Assembly: GCF_964204865.1 (NCBI RefSeq)
Contig: NC_135264.1
Location: forward strand, 11,780,001 to 11,844,000
Reading direction: 5' to 3'
DNA: 64,000 nucleotides
Source of the DNA: Styela clava
Taxonomy: Eukaryota
Positions 2,907 through 59,309 of the stretch are shown piece by piece (position 1 is the stretch's first letter; every line of letters begins with the position of its first letter). Made by a program: the position numbers and the translations under genes. The notes beneath the pieces were generated by a model. It was not told the origin of the DNA. It made no database searches and saw only the letters and a list, made by a program, of their open reading frames with translations.

Positions 2907-4183
2907 TTTGAAGGTGCATTGATGGATTTGTTTTGTGTTCGTTCGGGATGGTTGAAGCCAGGTATATTGCAGTATTGTGCTGCTTAGGCAGGGATTGCAT
3001 TCTGTCATATACTTAAAAACAAAGCAATGGCCAGAAATACTTCCCTATACGGTCTAATATGTTCATGACATAGTTTAATCCGGAGCGTATATGCTAAACA
3101 GGCGACGGCACAAATCGCAGGTAAAAAGGTAAATTTGAGAGGAATGAGGTCGCTGTAAATGTAGGGAAAATACACATCACATTAGGAAAAGATTGTGAGG
3201 CGAACTGATCCTAGGGTAAAGGGTGCATTGAATGACCAGACCAGAAATTCCGCAGTACAAGCCTCGGCGTGACAAACGCCGGAGCCCAAGCGCGAAACGG
3301 CCGAGAATGCGTGCAAAATCTAAATTTAAGCGTGTAAAAAATAGGACGAACAAATAGATACATTAGTATTGAAGGGGAGCGTCCCAATTCGTTGCAACAC
3401 TGGCGCTTTGATTGACGCAGAGCATTGGGTCCCAATTTGGCGAAAGGACGGCGACATTGGGTAGTTGAGTTATTGCCCAAAATAACGTGATGGAGGCCTC
3501 TTGCGTTTACCTTTCATCCGTCCGCTCAATATATATATTGAAACGAAATATATTACAGTAGTTAACATCCTTATACGGCCAGTGCCTTTATTGGGACAAT
3601 TGAAAATCCAAGTCAGAGACTTATCCAGTTTACAATTCTGCTATTGTAGTCTGATCGGTCTGATGTAAATGACTGTTCACAGGATTGATGCCTCGCCCCA
3701 TGATGGCGCCATTTATGACGAAAGTTTCGCCGCATCAGCGTTGAAAAATATATTACGTTATATGAATGTGAGTTTCAAAATCTGGATTACAAAAAGTATC
3801 ACGTTCAGACGTTTGAAGTAATGCGCGTTTAGTATTGCCTGGGAACAGTCAGTTTGTTATGTTAGAATTTTCAGCACTTTTTTCTCGGACCGGACGAGAG
3901 GCCGCCGTGGTTTGCCATCTATTTTATACCGTATTGTGTATACATAATATATTCCCTTTTATTTTAAAAAAGCTTTCATTTTTCTAAAGACGATCTGTAT
4001 TACTGCAGTACTGTGATACCAGCCAAAGCTGAAAAATATTCCTTTGTGCCTTTTAAGCATAGCTTAAAAGTTGTTCGTTCTTCTGAGTATTATTCATGCA
4101 GAACTTTACATTATCAGTTATATGACCAATTAGTATTTGTAAGTTACTAATTTAACTAGTTCAACTTTATTAAAGTCTTTATT

Positions 4184-4738
4184 ATGTCATATAAGGACAG
4201 AAGACCGAGTGCTCCACTCGATTGCAAAGTGTACGTTGGAAATCTTGGAGATGGAGCTTCACGAAGTGAATTGGAAATTGAATTCGGACATTTTGGAAGA
4301 TTAGTAAGTGTATGGGTTGCCAGAAAACCACCAGGCTTCGCGTACGTTGAATTTGAAGACCCAAGAGATGCTAAAGACGCTGTCAGAAGTTTAGATGGAA
4401 CAACGCTTTGTGGACGTCGAGCGAAAGTTGAACTTTCACATGGGCAAAAAAGAAATAGAAATTTTCGACCCAGTTACAGTGATCGACCACCGAGACGTGA
4501 CATGTCAGAAGTCCGATGCTATACATGTAATCAAACTGGACATATCGCTAGGAACTGTCGGGAAGGTGGCAAATCACGTTCTCGATCTCCAAGAAGAAGA
4601 TACTCCCGCTCCAGGTCTCATTCTCCGTCTCGTTCCCGAAGTCCGTCTCCGAAATATTCACGTTCTCGATCTCGAAGCAGAACGCCTGAAGATAAACGCC
4701 AGAGTCGTTCTCGTTCACGCAGCAGATCTCGAAGCTGA
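4184..4738 (+). CDS. SRSF7: SR splicing factor of the SRSF7(9G8)/SRSF3 family; RRM + CCHC zinc knuckle + RS domain; CDS intronless
   Basis: [10 protein letters not shown]...[47 protein letters not shown] knuckle (SRSF7-type), RS/SP-rich tail in one uninterrupted 184-aa ORF. Confidence 0.9.
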
Positions 4739-11652: not shown

Positions 11653-12697
11653 TGTCAGTCTATTTAATTGAAAAGTTCTTTGAATGATTGTTGAATATTT
11701 TATAATGTGCAATAAAATGTAGTTAAATGAAGTTGCAGTACAGTGTACGGTTTGAGAGGGTTGGTCAGGCAGATTTGCGTCGATTTTTGAAGACCCATTT
11801 TTTTTTAATTTCGTTCCTCTAATGATCATACTGTGGTGTTAATCAATTTCGTGCCAAATATAGGAAAATCTAATCCTTGGTTGATATTTGAAGGTTTGTT
11901 TTTCACAAAGTCTCTCTTTATTCACCTTTGTAATTATACCTAATACTTGTTACTATGTATTCTATTTACATTTAATATTAGAATTTGGCCTCGAACCTAA
12001 GAGTTTGCATATAACATTGTAAAAATTTTTTTCCGATATTCTTCGTGTTCCACTAAAATGTATTAATTTTTGTTTTTTCTTTGTGCAGACCTATTCTTGT
12101 GCTTCTAGGTTACCGGTATGTGATATAAATTTATATATTTTTTTGATTATCTGTACCAGTTGAATGTGCTTAAACGTATCTTTTTTTTTCTTCGGAACAT
12201 TTGATTCGGAGTAGGATCCATTTTTTCGTACCGCTTGGGAAACGTTTTAGCTGGCGCCAACTCAAAGCAATTCAAATAGACGCTGCTAATATTCAGATAT
12301 TACAGCAAGGCGGTAATTCCGTAATGCGGACAGTGTCATATACTTTATTTAATCGCATGATTTCATAAACGTGTCTATATATTTTGTTAGCTTATATTTA
12401 AAACATTCAAAACGCTGCCATCATGAAATGCAAAAAGATAATCTTGAAGCAAATGTATGATTGATTGCCGAAGAAGGCTGATTTTGAGATCGTTGCAGAA
12501 GACATCGCTGAAGTGCCTGAAGATCTACAAAATGGAGGTCTGTAATAGCCAATACATACTGAAACATTGTTATAATCAATATATTTTTATTGAGAAACTT
12601 TTTCCCTTCAACTGTAAGCAATGGTACTCCGATTGGTTAGTGCAGTAGTGAGAGATTGGGTATTCGTTACTGGTATTGACTGTAGACGTTGTTTCAT

Positions 12698-13311
12698 GGT
12701 CTTACTACTTACTGAATACAGCGCGACACACCGTAAAGAGTGCAAAACGGAGGGAAACAGTGGGAAGCTGAAAAAAATTTTGCAAAGAGTCCGGGGAACC
12801 TTGTTTTGAGTTGGAGTACCACGGCAGCAAATTAAAAACACAAACCAACGTATGTAGCCAGTAAACATTTTCCATATGGACATGGTTGGCTTTAGGGTTA
12901 GGTAAAAAGGGATCTCCAGAAGTATGTGCACCAAAATGGCGCACAACCTGAAAATAGTATGTGTGTGTAGCGGATTCAGGTTGTGCGACATATTGCTGCA
13001 CATACTTCTGGAGCACCAAAAAGGTAGATATAATTTTGCATGATGACCTATAATCTGGTACATAACCTTGTAAATATACCGGAAATAGCGCCATAAAACC
13101 ATGGCGAGAGGCGCCGTGGTTCTTTTGTGGCAGGAGGGGGTAATGACTGCGTCTCCTGTTTTGCGCAGTTTCCCTCTGGTTTGCGGTGTTTCCCTCTGTT
13201 TTGCGGTGTTTCCCTCTGTTTTGCGCTGGTTTCCTTCTGTTTAGCGCTGTTTCGTGCTATTTCGCGCTCTTTGCGGTGTTTCGCGCTGTATTCAGTAAGT
13301 AGTAAGACCCA
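12698..13311. mobile_element. Non-autonomous TIR element (Mutator-like or other 8-9 bp TSD family) with subterminal tandem repeats, in PTGR1 copy 1 intron 1
   Basis: TIR GGTCTTACTACTTACTGAATACAGCGCGA at both ends; flanking duplication TTGTTTCA(T) at 12689 and 13312; absent at the paralogous site in copy 5. Confidence 0.85.
12910..13017. mobile_element. Short GG-terminal palindromic MITE nested in the previous element
   Basis: GGATCTCCAGAAGTATGTGCA / TGCACATACTTCTGGAGCACC inverted ends; AAAAAG on both flanks; same family as 25015-25250. Confidence 0.7.
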
Positions 13312-14646
13312 TTGTTTCATGCTCCAATCTTCACTCAGTTATTGGCGCATGTTCAGACAGATTGCACCGTAATACTTCGTTTTGTCCGAAGTGTTTCTAT
13401 ATTTGAGCACCGCTCTCTTGTTTTATGATCGTAGTTGAGACTAAGACATATTTCTGGAAAGGGTTGGTCCCTTTATGACATTATGAATCTCAGAAATTAG
13501 TTCGGTCGGTCATCAGTTTAGGGCCCATTCACGCTATCCCTAAATTTGTACATTTCCCAGTAAATCACTGATGGCGTAGTGAAGACAAAAAGAATCCACT
13601 GCTACCGGTGCTTCAGCTAACCCCTGATCACCTATATTTAACTATTCATATATTTCACCCAACATGCTTGGTGTTAATACAACTCGTCCTGATATATTTG
13701 GGGTCATTTGACATTATAGATTGACAGCCTGGATCGGATGGATGATCATTTGTGAAATAAAAGAAGGGGGAACAATTTTTATCAGTGGCGCAGCAGGAGC
13801 AGTCGGAAATGTTGCAGCTCAGATTGAGAAAATTAAGGTAACTTAGAAGTATGACTTAGAAAAACTAATTTAGTTTTACAAGAACGCAAGTACGCCACTC
13901 AATCACATTTTATACAATTCAGGGATGCACAGTTGTTGGATCATGCGGAACAGACGAAAAAATAGAATTTTTTAAGAATATTGGATATGACGCAGACACG
14001 CAGTATTCAACTACAAAAAAGAATCGAGAAGTTCAGATGCAGCTGTCAAACGGATTGCCCCGAAAGAAATAGATTGCTACTTTAACAACGTAGGTTTTTA
14101 AGCAGACTGTTTTACAGTATTTTGACGTTCAATTGCTTGCCAAGAGAGATTTGTTTGGCAAAGCAGTATGCCATTTTGAGGAAACCTAATAAAATTTATT
14201 TTTACAACTTTCCCAAACAAACTCCATTCAAACAATAAATAGTTACCAACTGTCAAACAATTTTCAGGTTGGAGGTTCTTTTTCAAGCACAATTTTACGT
14301 AACATGAATGCTGGTGGACGAGTGGGGGTATGTGGATCTATATCCGCTTACAACGAAACTACTTCTGTACTAGGTAAGTAAACCGTTTTCTGCAAAAATA
14401 CATTATTCCCATAAGACTTTCTGGTTTATCCTTTACAAAATGTATTGTTCAGCTCCCATCGTTCAACCTTCCATTGTGTCAAGTGAACTGATGTTGAAAG
14501 GATTCCTTTTGAGATCTTATGTGAGTAACTATAAGGAAGCATATGAAGATCTGAAAAAATGGACGATTTAGGTAAGATAGACATCCTGTGTAATTATAGT
14601 TCATCAGTGCAAATATTTATTGACTATCTATTTTATTCATTTTTAG

Positions 14647-14754
<108 letters not shown>

Positions 14755-15330
14755 TAAATTTCAATCACCATACTATCATTATCATTAAGAAATATATTGT
14801 ATCAATTTAACAGTATTACAATTTGATTCGTACGCCCTCGTACTAACCTCATATTTTGATGATGTCATAATATCATGCCCGGTTAAACATATGCCCTATG
14901 TCAGACTAAAACAATCATGCAAGGCCTTCTAAGCTAATCAAACTGAATCATTGTTTGCAATTTATTATCGACTTTTGCTGCTTTTTATAATATTACTGAT
15001 TACAATTGATTTCAGTTTTATCAGCATATTTCTTGGTACAATATCGGCGATTAAAATAATTGCTCTGTGGATCAAAGAAAATATTTCTGTTCCCACCTTT
15101 TAACCTAGATTTTCTGTTAACCTCTATTGGTTACATGGTGAACCACATTGTTTCTTTTCATAATTCGGTTTTGCTGTCAGATTTATCTAAATTGAGTAAG
15201 GTCCAGCATCAATGTTCCCTCTAATTTTTTGTAGTATGTGTGCGCAGAAATTTTGGTGTGTGCGCACTTTTTTGGAAATGACTAATATTTGTGCGATTCA
15301 GTTTTAATAGGACATGTAAAGCCTGTAGAT

Positions 15331-17229: not shown

Positions 17230-17519
17230 GTGTAGATGCTATTTTAATCCTATTCACTAGTCTTATGTTATTTTGTGTAAATTTCAGCAAAATAATAACA
17301 ACTATCAATATAGATAAAACTGTTGCTCAAGTTCAAAATTGCATTTAAAAATTCCAAGCTAGTTTGATGACTATAATATTGTTAGTGTACAACAGCCATC
17401 AAAATGCAAAACTGCAATTATTTGTCTTGGTATATAGATGAATAATACAGTAATGCCATCATAAGAAATTACAAATTCCATTCGAAGAAGGTATTGCCAT
17501 GATAAGGATCCCAAAACAC

Positions 17520-19879
17520 CTGAATTGATAATAGAAATACATAATTTGAAAGACAGGAAGGCAGTTGGTCCAGACAACATACCAGCACGTTTCCTTAAAT
17601 TAGTTGCTGATCTCATTGCACCATGTTTGGCTGAATTCTTCAATTGTTCACTTTTGTTTGGAATCTTCCCTGCATGTCTCAAAATTGCCCGAGTGATCCC
17701 TCTTTTCAAATCTGGCAATAAAAAATGTATGTCAAATTACAGAGCAATTTCAATTCTTTCATCAATAAGTAAAATATTTGAGCGTTTGATTCATAAGCGA
17801 CTCAATGCTTTTTTTACGAAACATGATGTAATAAATAAATCACAGTTTGGCTTCCAAAATAATCTATCTACATCACATGCTATCTTAGACACAATATCAT
17901 ATATCTACGATAAACTAGAGAGGAAGGAGTTTGTCAGTGCAACATTCCTAGATCTAAGGAAGGCCTTCGATACCGTAAATCATAACATCCTGATTTACAA
18001 GTTGAGACATTTCGGTATCAGGGGTACAGCAAACAAACTCATTTCTAGTTATTTAAGTAATAGATCACAATATGTTCAAGTTGGGTCGTGTCGTTCCTCT
18101 CCCTTACCAGTGACTCACGGAGTTCCTCAAGGTAGTTGCTTGGGTCCTCTTCTATTTCTAGTCTATGTAAATGACATAACTTGTTGTTCCTCCTTCTTTA
18201 CCAAATTGTTTGCTGATGATACCAATCTTCTCGACAGCGACAAATCTTGTGCAGTTCTTCAGTTGAGAGTAAATTCTGAAATTGCGAAAGTATCAAATTG
18301 GATGCGGTCTAATAAACTAACACTGAACATTGGCAAATCAAAAACTATGTTAATATCTCCACACCAGTGCAAATCTAAAAATGAAACAGTAATACAAATT
18401 GATGACAAAGAACTTGAAAATGTCCATTCTTATAAATATCTTGGCATATATTTAGATAGTAAAATGAATTGGGATGTTCACTTATCCAAATTATCCGTTA
18501 AATTATCTAAATCGGTTGGAATACTTTACAAGCTTAGACGATTTACATCACCAACAACACTAAGGATGGTGTACTACTCCTTATTCCAGAGCCATATCCA
18601 ATACGGCATAATTGCTTGGGGTTCAGCTGTTAAAACATTATTACATCGCATTGAAATTATGCAGAACCGAGCAATCCGTGCAATATCTGCCGCTAGTTAT
18701 TTTTCACGACTCAGTCCTATTTATTATAACCTTCAAATTATTAAATTGGCAGACATTTACAAAATAGAAGTTTTGAAATTGATGCACCAACACCACTGCA
18801 AAAAACTCCCTCCTGCGTTCACAAACTATTTTTCAAAACAAAGCAATGTTCACTCATATGGAACACGGTCCTCTATTAGCAGTTCTTATTATGTAAATCG
18901 TTTTAGCACCAAACTCACCCAAAACTCAATCAAGTTTGTTGGTGTTAAATTGTGGAATAATCTCCCCAATAGCATTAGGACCAGTACCTATAACTTGTAT
19001 AAACATGCACTGAAGAGCCTATACCTAGATGCTTATAAGCCCAGTTGCAATTAGTCTAGAAATATTATATTTGTATACCGGTATGTACCGTACCTATCCC
19101 TGTGGTGCTGCTTTTCCCATCCATGTTCGTCAAGTTGTGTGCTCGCTGTGTACTGTTCTTGTTTTAATATTTTCCGCCCAACCTATATGCCACGAATACT
19201 GCAGAACCCATAATTATTCTGCACTACTCTAATAGCCACTAACAATCGCTTTCAACATAAAAATCCGTTAAATACGGTATTGATTCTCGCAGCCAGAAGC
19301 CCGTTGCTGGGCACGCCATATTGGTTTACTGTGTATGCTTAGTCAGCATTATTCCGCAATTCTTTGTTGTCATTGAGGCATATACTTCTTACAGATGTCG
19401 CTGTTAAGTCATATAATACGATGTGATCATTGTAGTATCTCGGTGTTTATTTCGATTTTATTTTGTTCTTACTCTGTATGATCGAGTTTAATTAGGTAAA
19501 TATCTAATACTCCATAGTTATTATGACATCCTGTATTTTATTTTTCAAACTTTGTTGTTCCTTTTTGTGATTGAGGCTAATTAAGTGAATGTTTAGGTAA
19601 CTTTTCGTGGTCATTGTGGCATTCTTTTTGTTGTCCCTTTTATATATATGATTGTGTCGAATTTAGTGACTATTTAATATTGAGTTGTTCGGTTGCTATA
19701 TTTGCTGCTTCAATGCAGCTACAAGGTGTCGCTGACTGGATGACTCTTTGAGTCTTTCGCGATCCCTCGTCTATTGCAACAAGCCGATATCTGTCTTCGT
19801 AATTTGTTATATGTCTTTTTTTATTTTTTCATATCGTATATTGGTTTTGCATGACGAAAATAAAATCTGAATCTGAATT
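17520..19879 (+). mobile_element. 5'-truncated CR1/L2-group (Crack-like) LINE
   Basis: Uninterrupted RT ORF; long 3' UTR ending AATAAA plus (TCTGAA)2; CTGAATT at both junctions. Confidence 0.9.
17525..19054 (+). CDS. LINE ORF2 fragment: reverse transcriptase domain plus C-terminus, endonuclease missing
   Basis: KAVGPDNIP, NYRAISIL, QFGF, FLDLRKAFDTV, GVPQGSCLGPLLF, LFADD, YKYLGI motifs. Confidence 0.93.
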   Translation: MIIEIHNLKDRKAVGPDNIPARFLKLVADLIAPCLAEFFNCSLLFGIFPACLKIARVIPLFKSGNKKCMSNYRAISILSSISKIFERLIHKRLNAFFTKHDVINKSQFGFQNNLSTSHAILDTISYIYDKLERKEFVSATFLDLRKAFDTVNHNILIYKLRHFGIRGTANKLISSYLSNRSQYVQVGSCRSSPLPVTHGVPQGSCLGPLLFLVYVNDITCCSSFFTKLFADDTNLLDSDKSCAVLQLRVNSEIAKVSNWMRSNKLTLNIGKSKTMLISPHQCKSKNETVIQIDDKELENVHSYKYLGIYLDSKMNWDVHLSKLSVKLSKSVGILYKLRRFTSPTTLRMVYYSLFQSHIQYGIIAWGSAVKTLLHRIEIMQNRAIRAISAASYFSRLSPIYYNLQIIKLADIYKIEVLKLMHQHHCKKLPPAFTNYFSKQSNVHSYGTRSSISSSYYVNRFSTKLTQNSIKFVGVKLWNNLPNSIRTSTYNLYKHALKSLYLDAYKPSCN

Positions 19880-20453: not shown

Positions 20454-21120
20454 CAATGTTTCTTAATTTTATTTTTGGATTTTACCCCTTTACCAAATTA
20501 GATTACAAGAGTAATCCCCAATACAGCCATTGGTGATCATTTATTGAAAACTCGTAAAGCAAACTATAAAGAACTTTAGAAGTCTTTCTCTTTCTTCCTT
20601 CTACCCTCCTCTTTTTACCCCATCATATCACTGCATAGCCATCCATTCGGCGAGGAAATGGGAGAGTGAGGTTTGCTGGGAGAGTAGAGGGGGGAGAGCA
20701 TTTTTCTTTAAAATAAAATATTCACGACGGTGAGAAATACTTGGTGGAATCATTCAAGCATTGTGATTTTGTTGAGGTCATATTCCGGGGCTTTTGATCC
20801 ATAGGCACTGTATCAGAAAAATTTTGGAAGTTTCTGATACGAGCAACGCAGAATTCATAGAGATAAAAAATGAGATTTCTGAGACGAATGGATAAGAGAG
20901 GAGTCTATGCCATGGCAATTTTATACCCTTGTTTAGAAGACGTCGCTCTGCATATCAATGACGCTTCCAGCGTATAGGTTGCACCATCAGGTGTGCAGAT
21001 AAACAAACCTTTGCTGTGGATCTATTCGCCTACAATCCTCTATAAACTCCAGTTCAGAAAAATTTCTAAACTTGTTCACATTCTTATTTCACTTTTCAAC
21101 TTGCCTCATGACCATTCCAG
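20454..21120 (-). mobile_element. Eroded right end and C-terminal transposase remnant of a Buster-type hAT, part of the duplicated PTGR1 unit (paralogues at 25431-26116 and 35977-36350)
   Basis: Charlie-like terminus CAATGTTTCTTAA after TCCTAGTT; minus-strand peptides VIDMQSD and YLYE..SALLV resemble the hAT dimerisation region. Confidence 0.55.
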
Positions 21121-21220
21121 GTAGGCCCTACTTTTAAGTCGCATGCTTTTTTTAATGTGTATATATAATTTGTTAGTTTAGATTTAAAACATAAAATAAA
21201 CTATTCAAAACGCTGCCATC

Positions 21221-24688
<3,468 letters not shown>

Positions 24689-27825: not shown

Positions 27826-29123
27826 TAGGCCGCGAGCCGAGGCCATTTATCTTTCAGTTTCGTAGCGCACATAAGGTAACTACCTGAAAATGATTTTAAA
27901 ATGTTCCTTGGAAATTTAGTAACAAATATTGCCTTGTTCCCACTTACAAAAGTTGCACGTTTTACGGAAAAGACGCTTTTACTACAAGAAATATGTGCTA
28001 CGATCTGTCCTATATTCTCTACATTTTCGGCAATGAACAATGACTTCTGCATGACGTAACAATTGAATCGAATCAGCTGTTAGCGAGCGGATGAATATTA
28101 GTTATTACTGCTCGACCTTGCGTTCAGTTGGGCAGCCTTTCCATGGCGAGTTAGCCCTCTCGAACTCGCGATGTCGATCGTCAATTATAGAGAAAATAGA
28201 CATGGCGAGTTAGCCCTCTCTCTCGAACTCGCGATGTCGATCGTCAATTATAAAGGAAATAGACATGGCAAGTTAGCCCTCTCTCTCGCGATGTCGATCG
28301 TCAAATATAGAGAAAATAGACATGGCGAGTTAGCCCTCTCTCTCGCGCGATGTCGATTATAAAGAAAATAGACATGGCGAGTTAGCCCTCCCTCTCTCTC
28401 GAACTCGCGATGTCGATCGTCAATTATAAAGAAAATAGACATGGCAAGTTAGCCCTCTCTCTCTCTCGAACTCGCGATGTCGATCGTCAATTATAGAGAA
28501 AATAGACATGGTGAGTTAGCCCTCTCTTTCTCTCGCGATGTCGATCGTCAATTATAAAGGAAATTGACATGGCGAGTTAGCCCTCTCTCTCTCTCTCGAA
28601 CTCGCGATGTCGATCGTCAATTATAGAGAAAATAGACATGGCGAGTTAGCTCTTTCTCTACCTCTCTGCTCGCAATCAACGTCTGTTTAGAATAAAATGA
28701 GACTGCCGGTAGCAAAATAGAACTTTTGATATATTTAGCATTGTTGTTGATTTAGTGCTCATACAATCAATTAATATGATGATATATTTAGCATGCTTAG
28801 ATGAAAATGATAAGTTTAGACTTCCTTTGCGCGTCGAGTACCGTACGGTACCGGTATGCCTTCCGACATATGACATATAAGCACGTTTTCTTGTCACTTT
28901 GTTACCATTTGCACAGTAGGTATTGTAACCAAACACATTTAATTTAATATATTTAATATCCTTACTATTGAAGTTGTTAGTATAAACAGCCACCTTTACA
29001 TCTCCCATTACAAAAAGAGCCTCCACACAGTTGCAGGCTAACCCGTTAACCGCCGTCGCATGGCAAGTGGTCCATGGCGAGTTAGCCCTCATGGCGAGTT
29101 AGCCTCCACCCGCTCGCGGCCTA
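27826..29123. mobile_element. TIR insertion carrying a minisatellite
   Basis: Inverted ends TAGGCCGCGAGC / GCTCGCGGCCTA interrupt one unit of the host repeat between CAGT and GGGTTTCAC. Confidence 0.65.
28142..28660. repeat. Minisatellite, 9 units of about 52-69 bp
   Basis: Unit CATGGCGAGTTAGCC(CT)nCGAACTCGCGATGTCGATCGTCAATTATAGAGAAAATAGA; two more partial heads at 29073-29105. Confidence 0.95.
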
Positions 29124-31054: not shown

Positions 31055-31813
31055 CTATTCTGTACTGCTCTGACGTACGTTAAAAGGTATTTGCATTCAA
31101 ATGTGTACACGGTGAATTCGTTTCATTTTTTGCGCGTGTTCACTTGAGTGTGGCAGAATAATATTATTATTTATTTTAAGTAATAGGGTTCGCAAACCCA
31201 AATGTTTATCGTCAATTCTCACACTTATCTTGATCTTGTGACTAAAATGAAGTACTACGATAATTAATTAATGAAAAATTCGTAGAATATGAATCGTAAG
31301 TGATAAATGTCAAATACAAAGTACAAGGGCAGATACAAAACGCCATGATTGATCACTGAAATAACGACGTTTGGCAAGCATATCTATGACATGTCGACTT
31401 TAGCAGCAGCTTGTTTTTGACGAATGAGACGCGTTTTACTTGGACTTAATTGGGAAAAAGAATATTTGGGATGTCGATACCTTTGTACATGAGTTTTTTG
31501 AAATGTTTTCATGTTTTTTGAATCTCTAATGGTGGAATAATACGTATTCTAGTAAGTTCTGATATGAGTGTAAATTTTGACAGTATGAACGACGAACATA
31601 GGATACTTGCCAGTTGCCACAGATAAATACCAATAAAATATTCGTACTCATTCATTTTCGTAACCGATTGAACCGCGTTGACAAACATATCTTGCATAGT
31701 ATTTTATGAATTATTAATCTGGTATACCCGTTAAATCTAGCAAAGCTAATAGAAATATACATTATATCGAGTATTAGGTGGACGCGTTAATATATAGATG
31801 AACCAGGATGCAA

Positions 31814-31829
31814 TCATAATGACTCAGCA
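31814..31829 (+). promoter_or_regulatory. Antioxidant response element (Nrf2/sMaf) upstream of PTGR1 copy 3
   Basis: TCATAATGACTCAGCA matches extended consensus TMAnnRTGAYnnnGCR; about 450 bp upstream of the ATG. Confidence 0.6.
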
Positions 31830-32276
31830 TGATTTTAATTTGTGCAACGTCATTCTAGAGAAAGGATGACCCTACATGAAAGACGATCAGGGTTGTTTGC
31901 TTTGGTTGAGTAGACGCGTTTAGGACAAAGAACTATTCATCTTTCAAATAAGTCTGGCATTTTGGCATAAGTTAAGCATTTTTACCTGAAGGGGGAACGT
32001 ATATTGGCAGAGGGAGTCACAATCGTTCACTGACGCGCCTAAAAGCTGTATATATTGAACAGTCTCTGCAGAAAGCGTGGATTCATTTTAGCTGGCACAG
32101 ACTCAAAGCAAACACAATTAAACGCTGCTAGTGTTACAGCGAGGCGGAAAAGAATTCCATAATGCAGAAAGTGACACGTAGGCCAGGCCCTACTTCCTTT
32201 TGATCGCATGCTTTTATAAATGTATATATATAATTTGTTAGTTTAGATTTAAAACATAAAATAAAACGCTGCCATC

Positions 32277-35468
<3,192 letters not shown>

Positions 35469-36884: not shown

Positions 36885-38119
36885 CTATTCTGTACTGCTC
36901 TGACGTACGCTAAAAGGTATTTGCATTCAAATGTGTACACGGTGAATTCGTTTCAAATTTTTGCGCGTGTTCACTTGAGTGTGGCAGAATAATATTATTA
37001 TTTATTTTAAGTAATAGGGTTCGCAAACCCAAAAGTTTGGTTAGTTCTGCCCGAAGCACCCTGTTTATCGTCAATTCTCACACTTATCTTGATCTTGCGA
37101 CTAAAATATGCGTCACGATAACTAATGAAAAGTTCGTAGAATAAGAATCGTAATTTATAAATGTCAAATGCAAAGTACAAGGGCAAGTAAAAAATGCCAT
37201 GATTGATCACTAAAATAAACGATGTTTGGCAAGCATATCTATGATATGTCGACTGATGATCCTAGAGCAAAATCTTTTGGCAAAATTACAAAACATCAGT
37301 TATTTTAGCAGCAGCTTGTTTGTGTATTTGACGAATGAGACGCGTTTTACTTGGACTAAATTGTGAAAAGGAATATTTGGAATGTCGATACCTTTGTACA
37401 TGAGATTTTTGAAATGCTTCCATGTTTTTTAAATCTCTAATGGTGGATCAATACGTATTCTAGCAAGTTCTGATATAAGTGTAAATTTTGACAGTATAAA
37501 CGACGAACATAGAATACTTGCCAGTTGACACAGATAAATACCAATAAAATTCGTACTCATTCATTATCGTAACCGATTGAACCGCGTTGACAAACATATC
37601 TTGTGTAGTAATTTATTAATTATTAATCTGACATGGCCGTCAAATCTAGCAAAGCTAATAGAAATATACATACTATTGAATGTCAGGTGGGCGCGTTACA
37701 AAATATTTAACTTAAAGATGTAATAATGACCCTATACGAAAAAGGTCAGAGTTATAGACGAAGAACGCAAATTACTCGTCCTTAAAATAAGTTTAGCTGA
37801 AGCAACTTCGTGACTCACAATTTTACCTGAACGGGGAACGATTATTGGCAGGAGGAGGAGGAGTCACAGTCGACAACTGACGCGCCTAAAAGCTGTACAG
37901 GATATAAAATAATCTCTGCAAGAGGCGTGAATCAATTTTAGCTCGCCCAGACTCAAATCAATTCAAATAGACACTGCTAGTGTTACAGAAAGGCGGAAAA
38001 GAGTTCCAAAATGCGGAGAGTGTCATATAGTTCCTTTTGATGGCATGCTTTTATAAACGTATATATATAATTTGTTAGTTTAAATTTAAAACATAAAAAG
38101 TATTCAAAACGCTGCCATC

Positions 38120-43502
<5,383 letters not shown>

Positions 43503-45953: not shown

Positions 45954-46889
45954 TCTAAGCTAATCGAACTGAATCATTGTTTGCAATTTATTATCGACTT
46001 TTGCTGCTTTTTGTAACATTACCCATAATATCAGCATATCCTTGGTGCAATATCGAGGATTAAAAAGTATTTTTGTTCCCTTTTTTACATAGATTTTCTG
46101 TTAGCCTCTAATGTGTACATTGAGAAAACCACATTTTTTTCTTTTCAGAGTTCGGTTTTACTGTGAAATTGAGTAATGTCCAGCATATAAACATACACAA
46201 ATTAAATAAATTGATTTTACTCTTAGTACATTGTCCTAGTTGAGTGGTTAATATATATACATTTTTGCATATTTTACCCGTTTATCAAATGAGATTACAA
46301 GATTTACCCCCAATGTTTGCTGTGGATTGGTGATCATTTATTGAAAATTTGTCAAACAAAGTATAGTGAGGTTGCTTAAATTATTAAGAGGTTGCTTAAT
46401 TAATTTTAACGTTTGGCAAGCATATCTATGACATGTCAACTGATGATCATAGAGCAAAATGACGTCAGTTATTTTAGCAGCAGCTTGTTTTTGTTTTTAA
46501 CGAATGAGACGCGTTTTACTTGGACTTAATTGTGAAAAAGAGAATTTGGAATGTCGATACCTTTGTACATGAGTTTTTTGAAATAATTTCATGTTTTTTA
46601 AATCTCTAATGGTGGTTCAATACGTATTCTAGCAAGTTCTGATATGAGTGTAAACTTTGACAGTATGAACGACGAACATAGGCTACTTGCCAGTTGCCAC
46701 AGATAAATACCAATAAAATTCGTACTCATTTATTATCGTAACCGATTGAACCGCGTTGTCAAACATATCTTGCATAGTATTTTATTAATTATTAATCTGG
46801 TATACCCGTTAAATCTAGCAAAGCTAATAAAAATATACATTATATCGAGTATTAGGTGGGCGCGTTAATATAGATGAATCAGGATGCAA

Positions 46890-46905
46890 TCATAATGACA
46901 CAGCA
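46890..46905 (+). promoter_or_regulatory. Antioxidant response element upstream of PTGR1 copy 5
   Basis: TCATAATGACACAGCA matches TMAnnRTGAYnnnGCR; differs from the copy 3 site only at a free n position. Confidence 0.6.
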
Positions 46906-47376
46906 TGATTTAAATTTGTGCAACGTCATTCTAGAATCTAGAGAAATGATGACTTTATACGAAAAAGGTCAGAGTTGTTTGCTATGGTTAAGTAGACGCG
47001 TTTAAGACAAAGAACAAGAACTATTTATCTTTCAAATAAGTTTGGCCAATGCAAATTCGCGACTCAGCATTTTTACCTGAACGGGGGACGAATATTGACA
47101 GAGGGAGTCACAATCGTTCACTGACGCACCTAAAAGCTGTATATATTGAATAGTCTCTGCAGAAAGCGTGGATTCATTTTAGCTGGCACAGACTTAAAGC
47201 AATTACAATTAAGCGCTGCTAGTGTTACAGCGAGGCGGAAAAGAATTCCATAATGTAGATGTAGAGAGTGTCATGTAGGCCCTACTTCCTTTTGATCGCA
47301 TGCTTTTTTAATGTGTATATATAATTTGTTAGTTTAGATTTAAAACATAAAATAAACTATTCAAAACGCTGCCATC

Positions 47377-54616: not shown

Positions 54617-57559
54617 CTACTGGATGTTATAAGCATTGAGGTAGTGATTTTTTAATTCTTTTTTAAATGTATTATAGTTCTTAGAGCGTATGGTAACTGG
54701 AAGCATATTCCAAAGTTTTATACCAATGAACTTAATGGAATTTTGTGTGCGGCTAGATGAATAGCGAGTCATATAATATGAGCTATTGGCAGAAGACCGA
54801 GTTGCATGAGAGTGAATGACGCTTTGCTTAACAAAATAGCCGGAGAATGCAGCCGGCAGTTTTTTATTATGATGTTGGTGCATAATTTTCAGCACTTCAG
54901 TTTTATAAATATCTGCATTTTTAAGTATTTTCATCTTATAATAGTAGGATTCTAAATTGCATCGAGGTCCGGCGTGTGTAAGAGCACGGATTGCCCTGTT
55001 TTGCATGACTTCAATACGATGCAGTAACATTTTGCTTGCTGAACCCCAGGCCGCAATGCCATATTGGATATGGGACTGGAACAGAGCATAATAAACCATA
55101 CGTAAAGTTGACACTGAGGTGTATGATCGAAGTTTATACAACATTCCTACCGCCTTAGATAATTTAACGGTAATGTTGGATATGTGAATATCCCAGTTCA
55201 ATTTATTGTCAATATCGATACCAAGATATTTATACGATTCCACATTTTCCAGAATAGTCCCCCCAATTTGGATTTTTAAACCATCAATGCGTTTTGGTTT
55301 TTTAGGAGTTATCAACATAGTTTTTGATTTATCCACATTTAATGTTAGTTTGTTAAGTTCCATCCAATGAGCAACCTTTTGTATTTCAGTATTCACCCTG
55401 GATTGAAGCACAACATGAGACTTATCACTATCGAGAAGGTTTGTATCGTCAGCGAATAATTTGGAAAATAGAGTGGAGCTACGTGCAAGATCATTAATAT
55501 AAATTAAGAACAGAGCCGGACCCAAGGACGAACCCTGGGGAACCCCATGGGTCACAGGTAAGACAGAGGAGCAATATGTACCTATTTGAACATATTGAGT
55601 TCTACTTGTCAAATAACTAGTAAGGAGTTGATTTGCTACCCCCCTAATACCGTAATGCCACAACTTATACATTAAAATTTTGTGGTTGACAGTATCAAAA
55701 GCTTTTTTAAGGTCGAGAAATGTTGCACTGACATATTCTTTCCTCTCTAATTTATCATATATATGAGAAATAGTATCTAAGATGGCATGTGACGTGGAGT
55801 GATTGCTTTGAAAACCGAACTGTGATTTATTTATAACATCGTGCTTTGTAAAGAAGTCCATTAGCCTCCTGTAAATTAGACGTTCAAAAACCTTATCAAC
55901 AGCAGATAATATGGATATAGGTCTGTAATTTGAAATTTGTTTTGTATTACCAGATTTAAAGATTGGAATTACTCTGGCAATTTTCAGTGAAGATGGAAAT
56001 ATCCCCAATCGAAGTGAATTATTAAAAAACTCAGTTATACAAGGTGCTATGATGTCTGCCACATACTTAAGGAAACGACTGGGAATGTTGTCAGCGCCAA
56101 CCGCTTTACCCTCATTGAGGCATACTATTTCCATGGTCAGTTCATTCACTGTTGCAGGACTTAAGAATATGGATTGATTTACACGCTTGCTAAGAAATAT
56201 TTTAAAGCCATCCATATCATTGGAGAATTTAGTACCAAGGTTGGACCCAACAGTGGAAAAATATTTATTGAATTCTTGTGCAATCAAGGACTTATCTTTA
56301 ATGGTTCTGTCATTTTCCAAATCAATTTCATTAACACTTTTGGTTTTTTTATTTTTAGTAGATGCTATTTGATTAACAATTCGCCAAGTACACTTGGGGT
56401 TGCCTTTGTTTTGGGCAATCAATTTTTGAAAATACATTTGTTTAGCATCTTCAATGGCATGTGTTAGTGAATTGCGATATTTTTTATAGTATGAGGATTG
56501 AGAACTATTGCCGCATAAGTGGTGAGATTTGAACATTTTATGTCTTAAACAGATGCTGTCACTTAATTTTTTATTTATCCACGGTTTTTGCTTTATCTTT
56601 ATTTGTCGACGTGACAGTGGTCTCAATGGGGCATGGCGGTTGATTAGGCAAGCAATAGAATGCATAAATTCTGCAAATAGTCTATCAAAATTATGACAAT
56701 TCAAGTTTAACGCGACAAAGCGTTCATCAACTATGTGTAGTATATCTGACCGAAATTCATCGATAGAGAATGAAGACATATCCCTTGATAATATGACATC
56801 ATTTATAGTGGATGGTTTAATGCCTTTAAGACAGCACATTATGGGAAAATGATCAGTGATATCAGATGATATCACATATGAATTAACTTGCACATCTGTC
56901 ATGTTTGAATACATGTGGTCTATAAGAGTGGAAGAGCTACGTGTAACTCTAGTAGGCTTTGAAATGAGAGAAATAGCATTATAGGAAGTAAGCATATCAG
57001 AATAAGATGCAATTTGGGTGTTGGTATTTGATGCGAGTAAATTGATATTAAGATCTCCCACTATTATAAAATGTTTTTTAGATAATTTTGACATGCAGTT
57101 TTCAACAATGCTTGTAAATTCAGGAATATCACTTCTCGGATGTTTATAAATAATGCCAATGCTCATATTATTGAATACATTTGTTAGGCTAATTTCGAAC
57201 CATAAGTCTTCAGAATTTGGATAATTGAGTTGATAGTCACTAACTTCACAATAAGTAATGTCGTTTCTGATGAAGGCACCCACACCCCCTGCTTTTGAAG
57301 CAGAAGGGGTATGAATGAATCTGTATCCATCAATGCTTATATTGGAGGAGTGACTATTACCGGTATGTAATTTTGTTTCACTAATTGCTATTATATGAGG
57401 GGGAATAGTGAATTTTGACAACAGTTCAATTAATGGGTCAATATTTTTTTGAATTGATCGAATGTTGATGTGAATAATTGTTAAATCAATATCAACTGGA
57501 ATATCATTCAAATTTGAAACTTCTATGTTGTCACATAGACAATTAGAAATATTAGCCAT
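54617..57559 (-). CDS. LINE ORF2: APE endonuclease + reverse transcriptase, 980 aa
   Basis: HINIRSI, ISETKL, GGVG, VGDLNINL, LIDH, ITDHFP endonuclease motifs; NYRPISIL, DLKKAFDTV, GVPQGSSLGP, LFADD RT motifs. Confidence 0.96.
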   Translation of the reverse strand: MANISNCLCDNIEVSNLNDIPVDIDLTIIHINIRSIQKNIDPLIELLSKFTIPPHIIAISETKLHTGNSHSSNISIDGYRFIHTPSASKAGGVGAFIRNDITYCEVSDYQLNYPNSEDLWFEISLTNVFNNMSIGIIYKHPRSDIPEFTSIVENCMSKLSKKHFIIVGDLNINLLASNTNTQIASYSDMLTSYNAISLISKPTRVTRSSSTLIDHMYSNMTDVQVNSYVISSDITDHFPIMCCLKGIKPSTINDVILSRDMSSFSIDEFRSDILHIVDERFVALNLNCHNFDRLFAEFMHSIACLINRHAPLRPLSRRQIKIKQKPWINKKLSDSICLRHKMFKSHHLCGNSSQSSYYKKYRNSLTHAIEDAKQMYFQKLIAQNKGNPKCTWRIVNQIASTKNKKTKSVNEIDLENDRTIKDKSLIAQEFNKYFSTVGSNLGTKFSNDMDGFKIFLSKRVNQSIFLSPATVNELTMEIVCLNEGKAVGADNIPSRFLKYVADIIAPCITEFFNNSLRLGIFPSSLKIARVIPIFKSGNTKQISNYRPISILSAVDKVFERLIYRRLMDFFTKHDVINKSQFGFQSNHSTSHAILDTISHIYDKLERKEYVSATFLDLKKAFDTVNHKILMYKLWHYGIRGVANQLLTSYLTSRTQYVQIGTYCSSVLPVTHGVPQGSSLGPALFLIYINDLARSSTLFSKLFADDTNLLDSDKSHVVLQSRVNTEIQKVAHWMELNKLTLNVDKSKTMLITPKKPKRIDGLKIQIGGTILENVESYKYLGIDIDNKLNWDIHISNITVKLSKAVGMLYKLRSYTSVSTLRMVYYALFQSHIQYGIAAWGSASKMLLHRIEVMQNRAIRALTHAGPRCNLESYYYKMKILKNADIYKTEVLKIMHQHHNKKLPAAFSGYFVKQSVIHSHATRSSANSSYYMTRYSSSRTQNSIKFIGIKLWNMLPVTIRSKNYNTFKKELKNHYLNAYNIQ

Positions 57560-57646
57560 TTATCTTAGGGAGAATATGAAAAATGGATATATACACACTT
57601 GATAATATTAAAAGTTAATAAATAGACATGAATATCATATAATAAC

Positions 57647-58639
57647 CTACTTTATTAAAAGCAGATCATCTTCAGTGATTATGGGGATGGTAGCAGTATC
57701 CAGGTTCTTTTTGATAAGAACTCTTCCATTATTTGTCCATAAAAATTTATATCCACAAGCACGCTTTAAATCCCTGGCTTTAAAAAATAGGTCTTTATTG
57801 GTATCCGAAAGATTTTCGATGACAAATACTTTGGTTGACCTGGAGATTTTTGGAAAAACTGTTGAAATGTCAAGTGATTTGATTTTGCTCCGATTCTTTA
57901 TTATTCGGTCTCTCGTTTTTCTATTGATAAATTTGGCAATTATTGGTGATGGTTTTTTTTTATTATTTTTTGATAATCTATGGCAGTTTGAGATGTCGAA
58001 TGATTGTATGGGGACATCAATTTTTTTACACAAGTCGGTAATCAGATTTTCACAGTTTTCACCGGTTGAGAATGGTATGTTGTGGAATTCCAGGTTATCA
58101 AGTCTGGAGCGACGTTCATGGTCTTGCTGTCGCTCTGTTAAAATGTCAATTTCCTCCTCTAGTTCTTGTACTAGATTTTCTAGGTCAGCCACTCTTTTTT
58201 TTGTTTTGATTGCTAATTTTTTGAGCTCACTTTGGCTGGAACAAAGCTCATCAAACTTTTTTGACATGAAGTGCTGGCTCTCTTTTATTTCATGAATCTC
58301 ATTTTTGATTTGACCGAAGGATGTTACTTCTGTTTTGATCTCGTTTATAGAGTCTTTCAAAGATGTTAAAGATTCTTCTAAGCATGCACTGTTGGTGATG
58401 GCATGTGTCGAGTCAAAAGTAGATCTTTCTAGATGTTTCTCAATATGTTGTTCAATGATGGCAGGTATCTCGATGCGTAAAGTCTTAAGGACTGTACTTT
58501 CGAGAACAGACACCAAATTTGTAACGTCGTCTAACTCAATAGTGTTGGTCATTGTTGCAGCAGTACGCATAGGTTGATTGCTTGGACTCTTTCTTCTGGG
58601 TGGTGGAGAAGGAGCGCTGGGTTTGCTAGGTGTATCCAT
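57647..58639 (-). CDS. LINE ORF1: coiled coil + L1-type RRM + C-terminal domain, 330 aa
   Basis: Heptad region then ERRSRLDNLEFHNIP, DISNCHRL, PIIAKF, VIENLS, YKFLWTNNGRVLIKK. Confidence 0.92.
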   Translation of the reverse strand: MDTPSKPSAPSPPPRRKSPSNQPMRTAATMTNTIELDDVTNLVSVLESTVLKTLRIEIPAIIEQHIEKHLERSTFDSTHAITNSACLEESLTSLKDSINEIKTEVTSFGQIKNEIHEIKESQHFMSKKFDELCSSQSELKKLAIKTKKRVADLENLVQELEEEIDILTERQQDHERRSRLDNLEFHNIPFSTGENCENLITDLCKKIDVPIQSFDISNCHRLSKNNKKKPSPIIAKFINRKTRDRIIKNRSKIKSLDISTVFPKISRSTKVFVIENLSDTNKDLFFKARDLKRACGYKFLWTNNGRVLIKKNLDTATIPIITEDDLLLIK

Positions 58640-59309
58640 CTTCCTCTACAGCTGCAATTGGAGTTGACTGTCACAAATTCACAATTGATCCGAACATCGG
58701 TTCAGCATTACCAATATTATATTTTATTTATTTATCTATCATCTTAATCAAATAGCGAATGAATAGCAAAGTTTGGTATTCGCACTCGGGGTTTGCCTGT
58801 ATAGAAACAGGTTGTACTATATAGCAGTAGTAGTATAGGCCTCTACACTGACTCAAAATATAGACGATATAGAACAGCATTTTCATATTTATTCAGGGGA
58901 AAGAAAATCTTATATTGATATATATGTAATACGAGTCTGAACGTCCGCGAACCGGTCATCGTCAACCTTCCTGTCGGTCCGCCAAATATATTCCAATTGA
59001 AAAATGCAAGGCATTGATGGCCTTCCCATTTACACCTGATTTTCACCTTCTGTTGATGCCTAATTCAAACTTGGCCAGAGAGTTCTACCGTAGTAGTATA
59101 TATTTACGGTTCTACACACAACCCTCTATAGTTCTACGCCCATTTAAGCCCGGGACAGCAAATTTTTCATTGAATATTCTGCTTTTGAATTGCATACTTT
59201 TGTCGTAATTACATTCGTTTAAATATGTTTCGTATTTTTGACATTCTGGGTTGATTTTGGAGGTTCACCGATCCGCAGAATTAGTTTGGAAATTTAAAAA
59301 CATAACATA

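What the first reader, a model, noticed from the sequence alone, without database searches (positions are those of the whole stretch)
31814..31829. Nrf2-type ARE retained in copies 3 and 5, deleted in copies 2 and 4
Seen: full extended ARE consensus at 31814 and 46890; the block is deleted in copy 4 (about 37700-37725) and missing in copies 1 and 2. A second site reads GCGACTCAGCATTTT in copy 5 (47059) and GTGACTCACAATTTT, an AP-1 core, in copy 4 (37810); their consensus is another perfect ARE. Known: mammalian PTGR1 is an Nrf2 target. Inference: conserved or convergent electrophile induction, with regulatory subfunctionalisation among copies.
Basis: partly seen in the sequence, partly recalled or inferred. 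Interest (0 to 1): 0.7.

Follow-up and report, generated by a model that had tools for sequence, protein, structure and literature searches.

The report
Antioxidant switch on sea-squirt PTGR1 duplicates
Two of five side-by-side copies of a lipid-detoxifying gene in a sea squirt carry a textbook antioxidant-response DNA motif that likely lets the Nrf/Keap1 stress pathway switch them on, as in mammals, while the other copies lack it, most likely through ordinary decay and reshuffling of duplicates rather than a shown division of labour.

Summary
The motifs are there. The window is a Styela clava array of five PTGR1 copies: four intact, and copy 1 a pseudogene. Copy 3 has an exact NRF2 ChIP-consensus site (31819-29). 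Copy 5 has a one-mismatch version that loses the AP-1 core. The site is likely functional. The distant PTGR1 paralogue on another contig has its own ARE 155 bp before ATG. Nrf (with DLG/ETGE), Keap1, Bach and small Maf are present. Perfect AREs sit at the Keap1, Nrf and Bach loci, and GST upstream regions are ARE-enriched over Ras controls (p=0.002).

The 'retained versus deleted, subfunctionalised' story is not shown. Copies 3 and 5 share the site by descent or conversion, so it counts once. Copy 4's promoter block is an old divergent lineage, so loss versus gain is unresolved. Copy 2 lost everything more than 96 bp upstream of ATG, not just the ARE. No induction data were available. The scan earlier noted a similar ARE cluster at a shark GCLM duplicate, on other DNA. 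Verdict: a new member of a known kind and a neat natural test series, of modest interest.

The parts
31814..31829 (+). Copy 3 distal ARE/CsMBE; core ATGACTCAGCA at 31819-31829 (-458 from ATG), exact NRF2 ChIP consensus with embedded AP-1 TRE
   Evidence: consensus from PMC5305174 (passages); unchanged in a contig of another sample, X3, 31722-32083, 0 differences
31843..31853 (-).
46890..46905 (+). Copy 5 distal ARE; core ATGACACAGCA (-482 from ATG), one mismatch to the ChIP consensus, AP-1 TRE lost
   Evidence: no substitution in X3 contig 46800-47181 (2-base insertion behind 46931)
46919..46929 (-). Copy 5 second, inverted ARE core ATGACGTTGCA
47059..47069 (+). Copy 5 proximal 'site 2' GCGACTCAGCA (TGA core broken)
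37810..37817 (+). Copy 4 proximal 'site 2' GTGACTCA: AP-1 core without the GC of an ARE
31968..31978 (+). Copy 3 position homologous to site 2, degenerate
   Evidence: alignment
37629..38043 (+). Copy 4 divergent promoter block (0.70-0.83 identity to copies 3/5); 37699-37725 stands in place of the ARE block, net 49 bp shorter than copy 3
21119..21130 (+). Copy 2 junction: 3'-flank sequence of the repeat unit joined to the last 96 bp before ATG; whole upstream promoter missing
12423..14757 (+). PTGR1 copy 1, pseudogene (exons 2-4 not found, premature stops, frameshift)
21221..24688 (+). PTGR1 copy 2, intact, 9 exons, 330 aa
   Evidence: copy-2-type exon 6 and 3'UTR pieces in run X12
32277..35468 (+). 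PTGR1 copy 3, intact, 330 aa
   Evidence: one X6 contig (1619 nt) with joints across all 8 introns
38120..43502 (+). PTGR1 copy 4, intact, 330 aa
47377..50967 (+). PTGR1 copy 5, intact, 330 aa
   Evidence: copy-5-type contigs in X10, X12, X14

Best explanation
Copies 3 and 5 of a five-copy Styela clava PTGR1 array carry a pair of ARE cores 430-480 bp before the start codon that likely binds the animal's Nrf-small Maf dimer and would switch these detoxifying reductases on when electrophiles inactivate Keap1, while copies 1, 2 and 4 lack it, most likely through ordinary duplicate turnover. Shown: the sites, the gene models, the promoter junction of copy 2, the mosaic divergence, the pathway genes and ARE enrichment at pathway targets. 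Inferred: binding, induction, a weaker response of copy 5, and neutrality of the losses. Copies 3 and 5 hold the site through one shared origin or a conversion event. Whether copy 4 lost it or the 3/5 lineage gained it is open. An ARE at Styela PTGR1 in some position likely predates the array.
For: Exact match of copy 3 to the NRF2 ChIP consensus TGCTGAGTCAY (PMC5305174 passages); such a site occurs 252 times in 377 Mb, about 3e-4 per 500 bp. Independent test: the sister PTGR1 gene on C16 (52% identical; same clade 100/100) has ATGACTAAGCA 155 bp before ATG, the only strong site in 8 kb; that variant occurs 297 times genome-wide, so either variant is about 7e-4 per 500 bp. Trans factors present: Nrf with best PDB match NRF2 and DLG/ETGE motifs, Keap1, small Maf, Bach-like. 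Perfect sites at 3 of 3 of Keap1, Nrf and Bach loci (about 0.007-0.013 expected per locus scanned). GST upstream 1.5 kb: 24 cores in 14 of 30 loci, against 3 downstream, a shuffle mean of 8.9 (max 15), and 3 in 18 Ras-family 5' regions (p=0.002); spacing controls are flat. Mammalian PTGR1 is NRF2-regulated and protects against 4-HNE (PMC3726381, PMC10899170, passages). Turnover: pseudogene copy 1, dN/dS 0.15-0.34 in copies 2-5, conflicting segment trees, copy 2 junction at a short shared sequence.
Against: No binding or induction data. The ARE is no more conserved between copies 3 and 5 than its flanks (0.95), so selection on it is not shown. Genome-wide the motif is not above base-composition expectation (252 vs about 224; extended form 15 vs about 12), and of the other 14 extended hits, those whose neighbours could be named lie in or beside unrelated genes (aminopeptidase, lectin, ERp29). 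16 of 30 GST loci have no core, and many GST loci are tandem paralogues. Proteasome upstream regions show no enrichment of the general core (12 vs 9.7). The Nrf and Bach sites were spotted after the fact, and 1 of 7 non-Keap1 BTB loci also held a perfect site. Copy-2-type transcript pieces exist without any ARE. The transcription start is unmapped.
Confidence: 0.65

Rival explanations
1. Adaptive regulatory subfunctionalisation: selection keeps inducible copies (3, 5) beside copies run by AP-1 (4) or by a basal promoter (2).
For: Four ORFs are intact with dN/dS below 0.35. The four promoters differ in kind: ARE+AP-1, ARE only, AP-1 only, none. Copy-2-type pieces are present in an RNA-like run.
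Against: Purifying selection on the coding sequence may predate the promoter changes or be maintained by conversion. Copy 2's loss is a whole-promoter junction. One copy is already a pseudogene. No complementary expression was shown.
Confidence: 0.17
2. The site is bound, but mainly by AP-1 (Jun/Fos) or by repressive Bach-Maf or Maf-Maf dimers, so it does not confer electrophile induction.
For: Copy 3's site embeds TGACTCA; Jun, Bach-like and two small-Maf-like loci are in the genome; these factors share the motif (PMC9756947, PMC5305174, passages).
Against: Copy 5 and the C16 paralogue break the AP-1 core yet keep the GCA end. Nrf2-MafG binds CsMBE about 200-fold more tightly than AP-1 proteins do (PMC9756947, passages).
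Confidence: 0.1
3. A chance match with no function, copied by duplication or conversion.
For: 252 such 11-mers exist genome-wide, near expectation; the two copies are one event; no excess conservation.
Against: Position in front of a known NRF2 target; an independent ARE at the sister gene; enrichment at GST, Keap1, Nrf and Bach loci.
Confidence: 0.08

Closest known systems
Vertebrate NRF2-small Maf ARE/EpRE/CsMBE, consensus TGCTGAGTCAY (PMC5305174 and PMC9756947, passages)
   Same: Copy 3 is an exact 11-bp match; the Styela Nrf basic region and small Maf match NRF2 and MafG best in the PDB.
   Different: Single Nrf gene in ascidians (Ciona; PMC6155405, passages), so it is not specifically Nrf2; binding untested; copy 5 has one mismatch.
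NRF2 regulation of mammalian PTGR1/LTB4DH/alkenal-one oxidoreductase (PMC3726381, PMC10899170, passages)
   Same: Same gene family (best PDB match PTGR1, E 4e-84, against PTGR2 3e-44); ARE upstream of the gene.
   Different: Styela has a lineage-specific array plus a second locus. The position and sequence of the mammalian PTGR1 ARE could not be compared (paper not held).
Keap1-Nrf pathway of invertebrate chordates (amphioxus, PMC11989980; Ciona, PMC7031352; passages)
   Same: Keap1 and Nrf orthologues present; sulforaphane induces phase II genes in amphioxus; loose ARE cores were predicted in Ciona.
   Different: In the passages seen, Ciona AREs were predicted with the loose core only, which is at chance frequency here; no PTGR1 and no copy comparison.
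Birth-and-death evolution of tandem gene arrays with gene conversion (recalled concept)
   Same: Pseudogene, truncated promoter, segments with conflicting relationships.
   Different: Here the affected cis-element is identifiable and its state differs in each intact copy.

Membership tests
ARE/CsMBE (CNC-small Maf element) | Match to RTGACTCAGCA ChIP consensus | tested here: met
   Copy 3 exact; copy 5 one mismatch, still RTGACnnnGCA
ARE/CsMBE (CNC-small Maf element) | Extended consensus TMAnnRTGAYnnnGCRwwww (recalled) | tested here: inconclusive
   16-base part met, W tail 3 of 4; the extension is not enriched genome-wide, 15 vs about 12
ARE/CsMBE (CNC-small Maf element) | Lies in the promoter or enhancer region of a cytoprotective gene | tested here: met
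   -458/-482 from ATG of intact PTGR1 genes with spliced transcripts; start site unmapped
ARE/CsMBE (CNC-small Maf element) | Cognate factors encoded (Nrf with DLG/ETGE, small Maf, Keap1) | tested here: met
   the DLG/ETGE motifs searched for are named in PMC11989980 passages
ARE/CsMBE (CNC-small Maf element) | Bound by CNC-small Maf and needed for electrophile induction | not testable with these tools
   needs EMSA/CUT&Tag, reporter and induction data
ARE/CsMBE (CNC-small Maf element) | Conserved above neutral flanks or across species | tested here: inconclusive
   Copy 3 vs 5: 15 of 16, same as flanks; intact in one other sample; no related genome available; non-alignable ARE at the sister gene
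PTGR1 (MDR superfamily) | Full-length ADH_N_2 + ADH_zinc_N protein closest to PTGR1 rather than PTGR2/3 | tested here: met
PTGR1 (MDR superfamily) | NADPH-dependent enone/alkenal reductase activity | not testable with these tools
   enzyme assay needed
Regulatory subfunctionalisation (DDC model, recalled) | Ancestral element present before duplication and lost in some copies | tested here: inconclusive
   No outgroup for the ARE block; copy 4 is the deepest lineage there
Regulatory subfunctionalisation (DDC model, recalled) | Complementary losses and complementary expression among retained copies | not testable with these tools
   Only assembled contigs of untreated or unlabelled runs were available; no element unique to copies 2/4 was identified beyond the AP-1 core

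The most novel reading that the evidence does not exclude
The array is a caught-in-the-act ARE turnover and a natural dissection of the composite element. An ancestral proximal ARE (site 2) was duplicated or replaced by the distal pair; both sites have ATGCAA just upstream and a T-run behind. Selection now keeps four near-identical enzymes under four different inputs: Nrf+AP-1 (copy 3), Nrf only (copy 5), AP-1 only (copy 4) and basal or read-through (copy 2).
Probability: 0.15. Interest if true: 0.65.

Novelty: new member of a known kind. Interest (0 to 1): 0.36.

Why it matters
If induction is confirmed, NRF control of PTGR1 reaches back to the vertebrate-tunicate ancestor, or re-evolved with the same motif, and ascidians gain a first set of strong, testable AREs (PTGR1, Keap1, Nrf, Bach, GSTs). 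Four enzymes 86-93% identical with four promoter states in 30 kb make a cheap test of ARE grammar and of how duplicates lose inducibility, in an invasive harbour animal exposed to pollutants. It would not overturn anything: ARE-controlled detoxification genes and promoter decay in tandem arrays are expected.

Tried and rejected
(1) No RNA holder was listed on record; the RNA label of X5, X6, X10, X12 and X14 is the tool's guess, supported for copies 3 and 5 by GT..AG joints. (2) The bins holding copy 4's first exon had no cover in X5, X10, X6, X12 or X14, and X6 had no cover in the copy 2 bins checked (exon 1-2 and exon 5-9 bins). Contigs show presence only, so I draw nothing from this or from depth. 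(3) An X14 joint from copy 3 exon 1 to copy 4 exon 2 is uninformative: exon 2 differs by one base between these copies. (4) X7 (organism B) was laid in the hope of a related species; its listed long pieces differ by 0-4 bases on single-copy stretches, so it gave no footprint. X15 (about 6% read) was too thin. (5) Start-site mapping failed: contigs begin at 32243 (X5) and 32263 (X10), and about 24 letters at the 5' end of the X6 contig are unplaced by my bin arithmetic. This fits either a start near a TATA at 32215 or spliced-leader trans-splicing at 32246 with the real start further upstream (Ciona precedent, PMC3074122, passages); no Styela leader paper was found. (6) Neighbours of the 14 other extended-consensus hits (51 of the ORFs listed scanned) showed no detoxification genes. 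(7) A search with PF16884 found nothing in the genome (exons too short). (8) A transposon origin for the ARE block was rejected: only the array matches, although the search skips very common words. (9) Keap1 was not among the 30 best BACK loci checked in part (8 of 30 printed); it was found among 8 intron-split candidates. (10) No paper on Styela PTGR1 or on ARE partition among tandem paralogues turned up (listings only); two papers sought were not held. No supplements were read.

Full report
What the window is. A neighbouring SR-protein ORF is 99% identical to a Styela clava protein, and an exon of the repeated gene matches S. clava 'prostaglandin reductase 1-like' at 100%. Self-comparison shows five tandem copies. 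Copies 2-5 have nine exons with GT-AG introns and 330-residue ORFs, 86-93% identical, with dN/dS 0.15-0.34. Copy 1 lacks exons 2-4 and has stops and a frameshift. Database proteins P0125-P0128 look identical, by eye, to my models of copies 4, 3, 2 and 5, so they are not independent support. The best solved relative is PTGR1 (E 4e-84; PTGR2 3e-44). The promoter sequence occurs only in this array.

The observation. The two 16-mers and the two 'site 2' sequences are at the stated places. Copy 3's core, ATGACTCAGCA, is the exact reverse complement of the NRF2 ChIP consensus TGCTGAGTCAY (PMC5305174, passages). Copy 5's ATGACACAGCA has one mismatch, which removes the embedded AP-1 site. Both copies also carry an inverted core, ATGACGTTGCA, 14 bp further on. 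One other DNA sample, X3, carries both distal sites and copy 5's site 2 unchanged. Window statistics alone are weak: 3 extended matches against 0.5 expected, two of them paralogous, and the loose core is at chance. Genome-wide the perfect 11-mer occurs 252 times against about 224 expected from base composition (the tool's reversed control, which contains a CG, gave 81), and the extended form 15 times against about 12. The motif is therefore not rare; its position matters, at about 3e-4 per 500 bp.

Is it likely functional? Four lines of context say yes. First, S. clava has a second PTGR1 locus (contig C16; 52% identical; one clade with the array, 100/100, in a 33-protein tree without other named tunicates). 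Its non-alignable promoter has ATGACTAAGCA 155 bp before ATG, just upstream of a TATA-like run, and this is the only strong site in 8 kb. Either variant is expected at about 7e-4 per 500 bp. Second, the factors exist: an Nrf whose CNC-basic region matches NRF2 best and which has DLG and ETGE motifs, Keap1, a MafG-like small Maf, a Bach-like gene and Jun. Third, perfect sites lie about 580 bp before the likely Keap1 start codon, in an Nrf intron and at the Bach locus. About 0.007-0.013 would be expected per region scanned, but two of these were noticed after the fact, and 1 of 7 other BTB loci also had one. Fourth, the 1.5 kb upstream of 30 GST-domain loci (30 of 38 matches) holds 24 cores in 14 loci, against 3 downstream and a shuffle mean of 8.9 (max 15 of 100). 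The 18 Ras-family 5' regions (those of 30 fetched loci that start at the domain's beginning) hold 3 (p=0.002), and wrong-spacing controls are flat. Against: many GST loci are tandem paralogues, 16 of 30 have no core, and 14 proteasome genes show no excess of the general core (12 vs 9.7; 3 vs 0.15 for a stricter pattern chosen after seeing the hits). In mammals PTGR1 is NRF2-regulated and needed for protection against 4-HNE (PMC3726381 and PMC10899170, passages). Sulforaphane activates amphioxus NRF (PMC11989980, passages). Ciona has one Nrf locus (PMC6155405, passages), so 'CNC-small Maf' is the right label. Bach, Maf homodimers and AP-1 can occupy the same site (PMC9756947, passages).

How the copies came to differ. 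The array is a mosaic. Upstream of about -550, copies 3, 4 and 5 are 0.93-0.94 identical. In the ARE block copies 3 and 5 are 0.89 identical but copy 4 only 0.70-0.78, and in the next 175 bp 0.94 against 0.82-0.83; the more diverged intron pairs run 0.71-0.84. Coding sites mostly group 2 with 3 and 4 with 5 (22 informative sites against 9 and 6). So copies 3 and 5 share their promoter block through descent or conversion, and the ARE is no better conserved than its flanks. It counts as one event, not two retentions. Copy 4's block is as old as the deepest splits in the array, with 27 poorly aligning bases where copy 3 has 76. A deletion between two ATGAC repeats is possible, but without an outgroup gain in the 3/5 lineage cannot be excluded. 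Copy 2 did not lose an ARE block: everything beyond 96 bp upstream of ATG is replaced by the repeat unit's 3' flank, joined at a short shared sequence at 21124. Copy 1 keeps only about 180 bp of homologous leader. The claimed perfect consensus of site 2 needs copy 4's T and copy 5's G both to be ancestral; the T/C difference is a CG/TG change of unknown direction.

Expression. One X6 contig has joints across all eight introns of copy 3, and X5 and X10 also hold copy 3 pieces. Copy-5-type pieces occur in X10, X12 and X14 (6 and 9 differences from copy 3 where copy 5 predicts 6 and 8), and copy-2-type exon 6 and 3'UTR pieces occur in X12. So a copy without the ARE can apparently be transcribed. 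These are assembled contigs of unlabelled runs: they give no level, tissue, treatment or start site.

Mechanism, committed. Electrophiles modify Keap1, Nrf accumulates and pairs with small Maf, binds the distal pair in copies 3 and 5 and raises PTGR1, which reduces reactive alkenals and enones. Copy 3 would respond best and could also take AP-1 input; copies 2 and 4 would not respond. Sequence, factors and regulon context are shown; binding, induction and enzyme activity are inferred (0.65 for the whole). Adaptive subfunctionalisation remains possible (0.17), but nothing tested here favours it over ordinary birth-and-death.

Novelty. An ARE before PTGR1 is a new member of a known kind. My searches found no paper on Styela PTGR1 or on ARE partition among tandem paralogues (listings only; subscription papers and supplements not seen). 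The scan's own notes hold a related case on other DNA, an ARE cluster at a second shark GCLM, which I did not test. The value here is as a ready-made test series and as a pointer to strong candidate AREs in an ascidian.

Noticed in passing
G000:C5:1695899-1824752 (L009, L093-L095; similar L010): 13 perfect RTGACTCAGCA sites, all on one strand and about 7-17 kb apart, each sampled one just behind a similar lectin-like exon (no Pfam hit for the 2 such exons scanned): a tandem array that carries the motif in each unit.
   Followed up: partly
L186:1979-1989; L089:4478-4488; L091:8433-8443 and 2088-2098: Perfect or near-perfect AREs at the Keap1, Nrf and Bach loci, suggesting conserved feedback loops in an ascidian.
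   Followed up: partly
L187:8401-8411: Perfect ARE about 120 bp before an intronless short-chain dehydrogenase ORF resembling peroxisomal 2,4-dienoyl-CoA reductase (label recalled).
   Followed up: no
L021:1500-1516: Extended ARE in the 5' region of an ERp29 gene.
   Followed up: no
window 32240-32247: Copy 3 transcript contigs stop near a TTTAG acceptor-like site 30 bp before ATG, with about 24 unplaced 5' letters in X6: possible spliced-leader trans-splicing, which could also let promoter-less copy 2 be expressed by read-through.
   Followed up: partly
window 37727-37749, 46951-46973: TGACCC/TGACTT and AGGTCA half-sites in everted orientation 10 bp apart in copies 4 and 5 (degenerate in copy 3): weak nuclear-receptor-like element.
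   Followed up: no
window 47049-47056: Perfect octamer ATGCAAAT directly before site 2 in copy 5; ATGCAA also precedes the distal ARE, hinting that the two sites arose by local duplication.
   Followed up: partly
window 54617-58645 (ORF2 54620-57559 minus; ORF 57647-58645 minus), 17465-19054, 39000-40270: An apparently intact 980-aa endonuclease/reverse-transcriptase ORF with a neighbouring 332-aa ORF1-like frame, and two truncated relatives inside the array.
   Followed up: partly
P0121, P0130: Annotated isoforms that mix exons of different copies (copy 3 start with copy-4-like end; copy-4-like exon 1 with copy 5 body): either chimeric alleles, cross-copy splicing or annotation artefacts.
   Followed up: no
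window 4160-4738: Intronless SRSF3/7-like gene.
   Followed up: partly
G000: Very large expansion of mostly intronless BTB-BACK genes (499 candidates, 150 scored) in arrays on C1, C5, C6, C10.
   Followed up: no
window 28142-28666: About 67-bp minisatellite, 8 copies, between copies 2 and 3.
   Followed up: no
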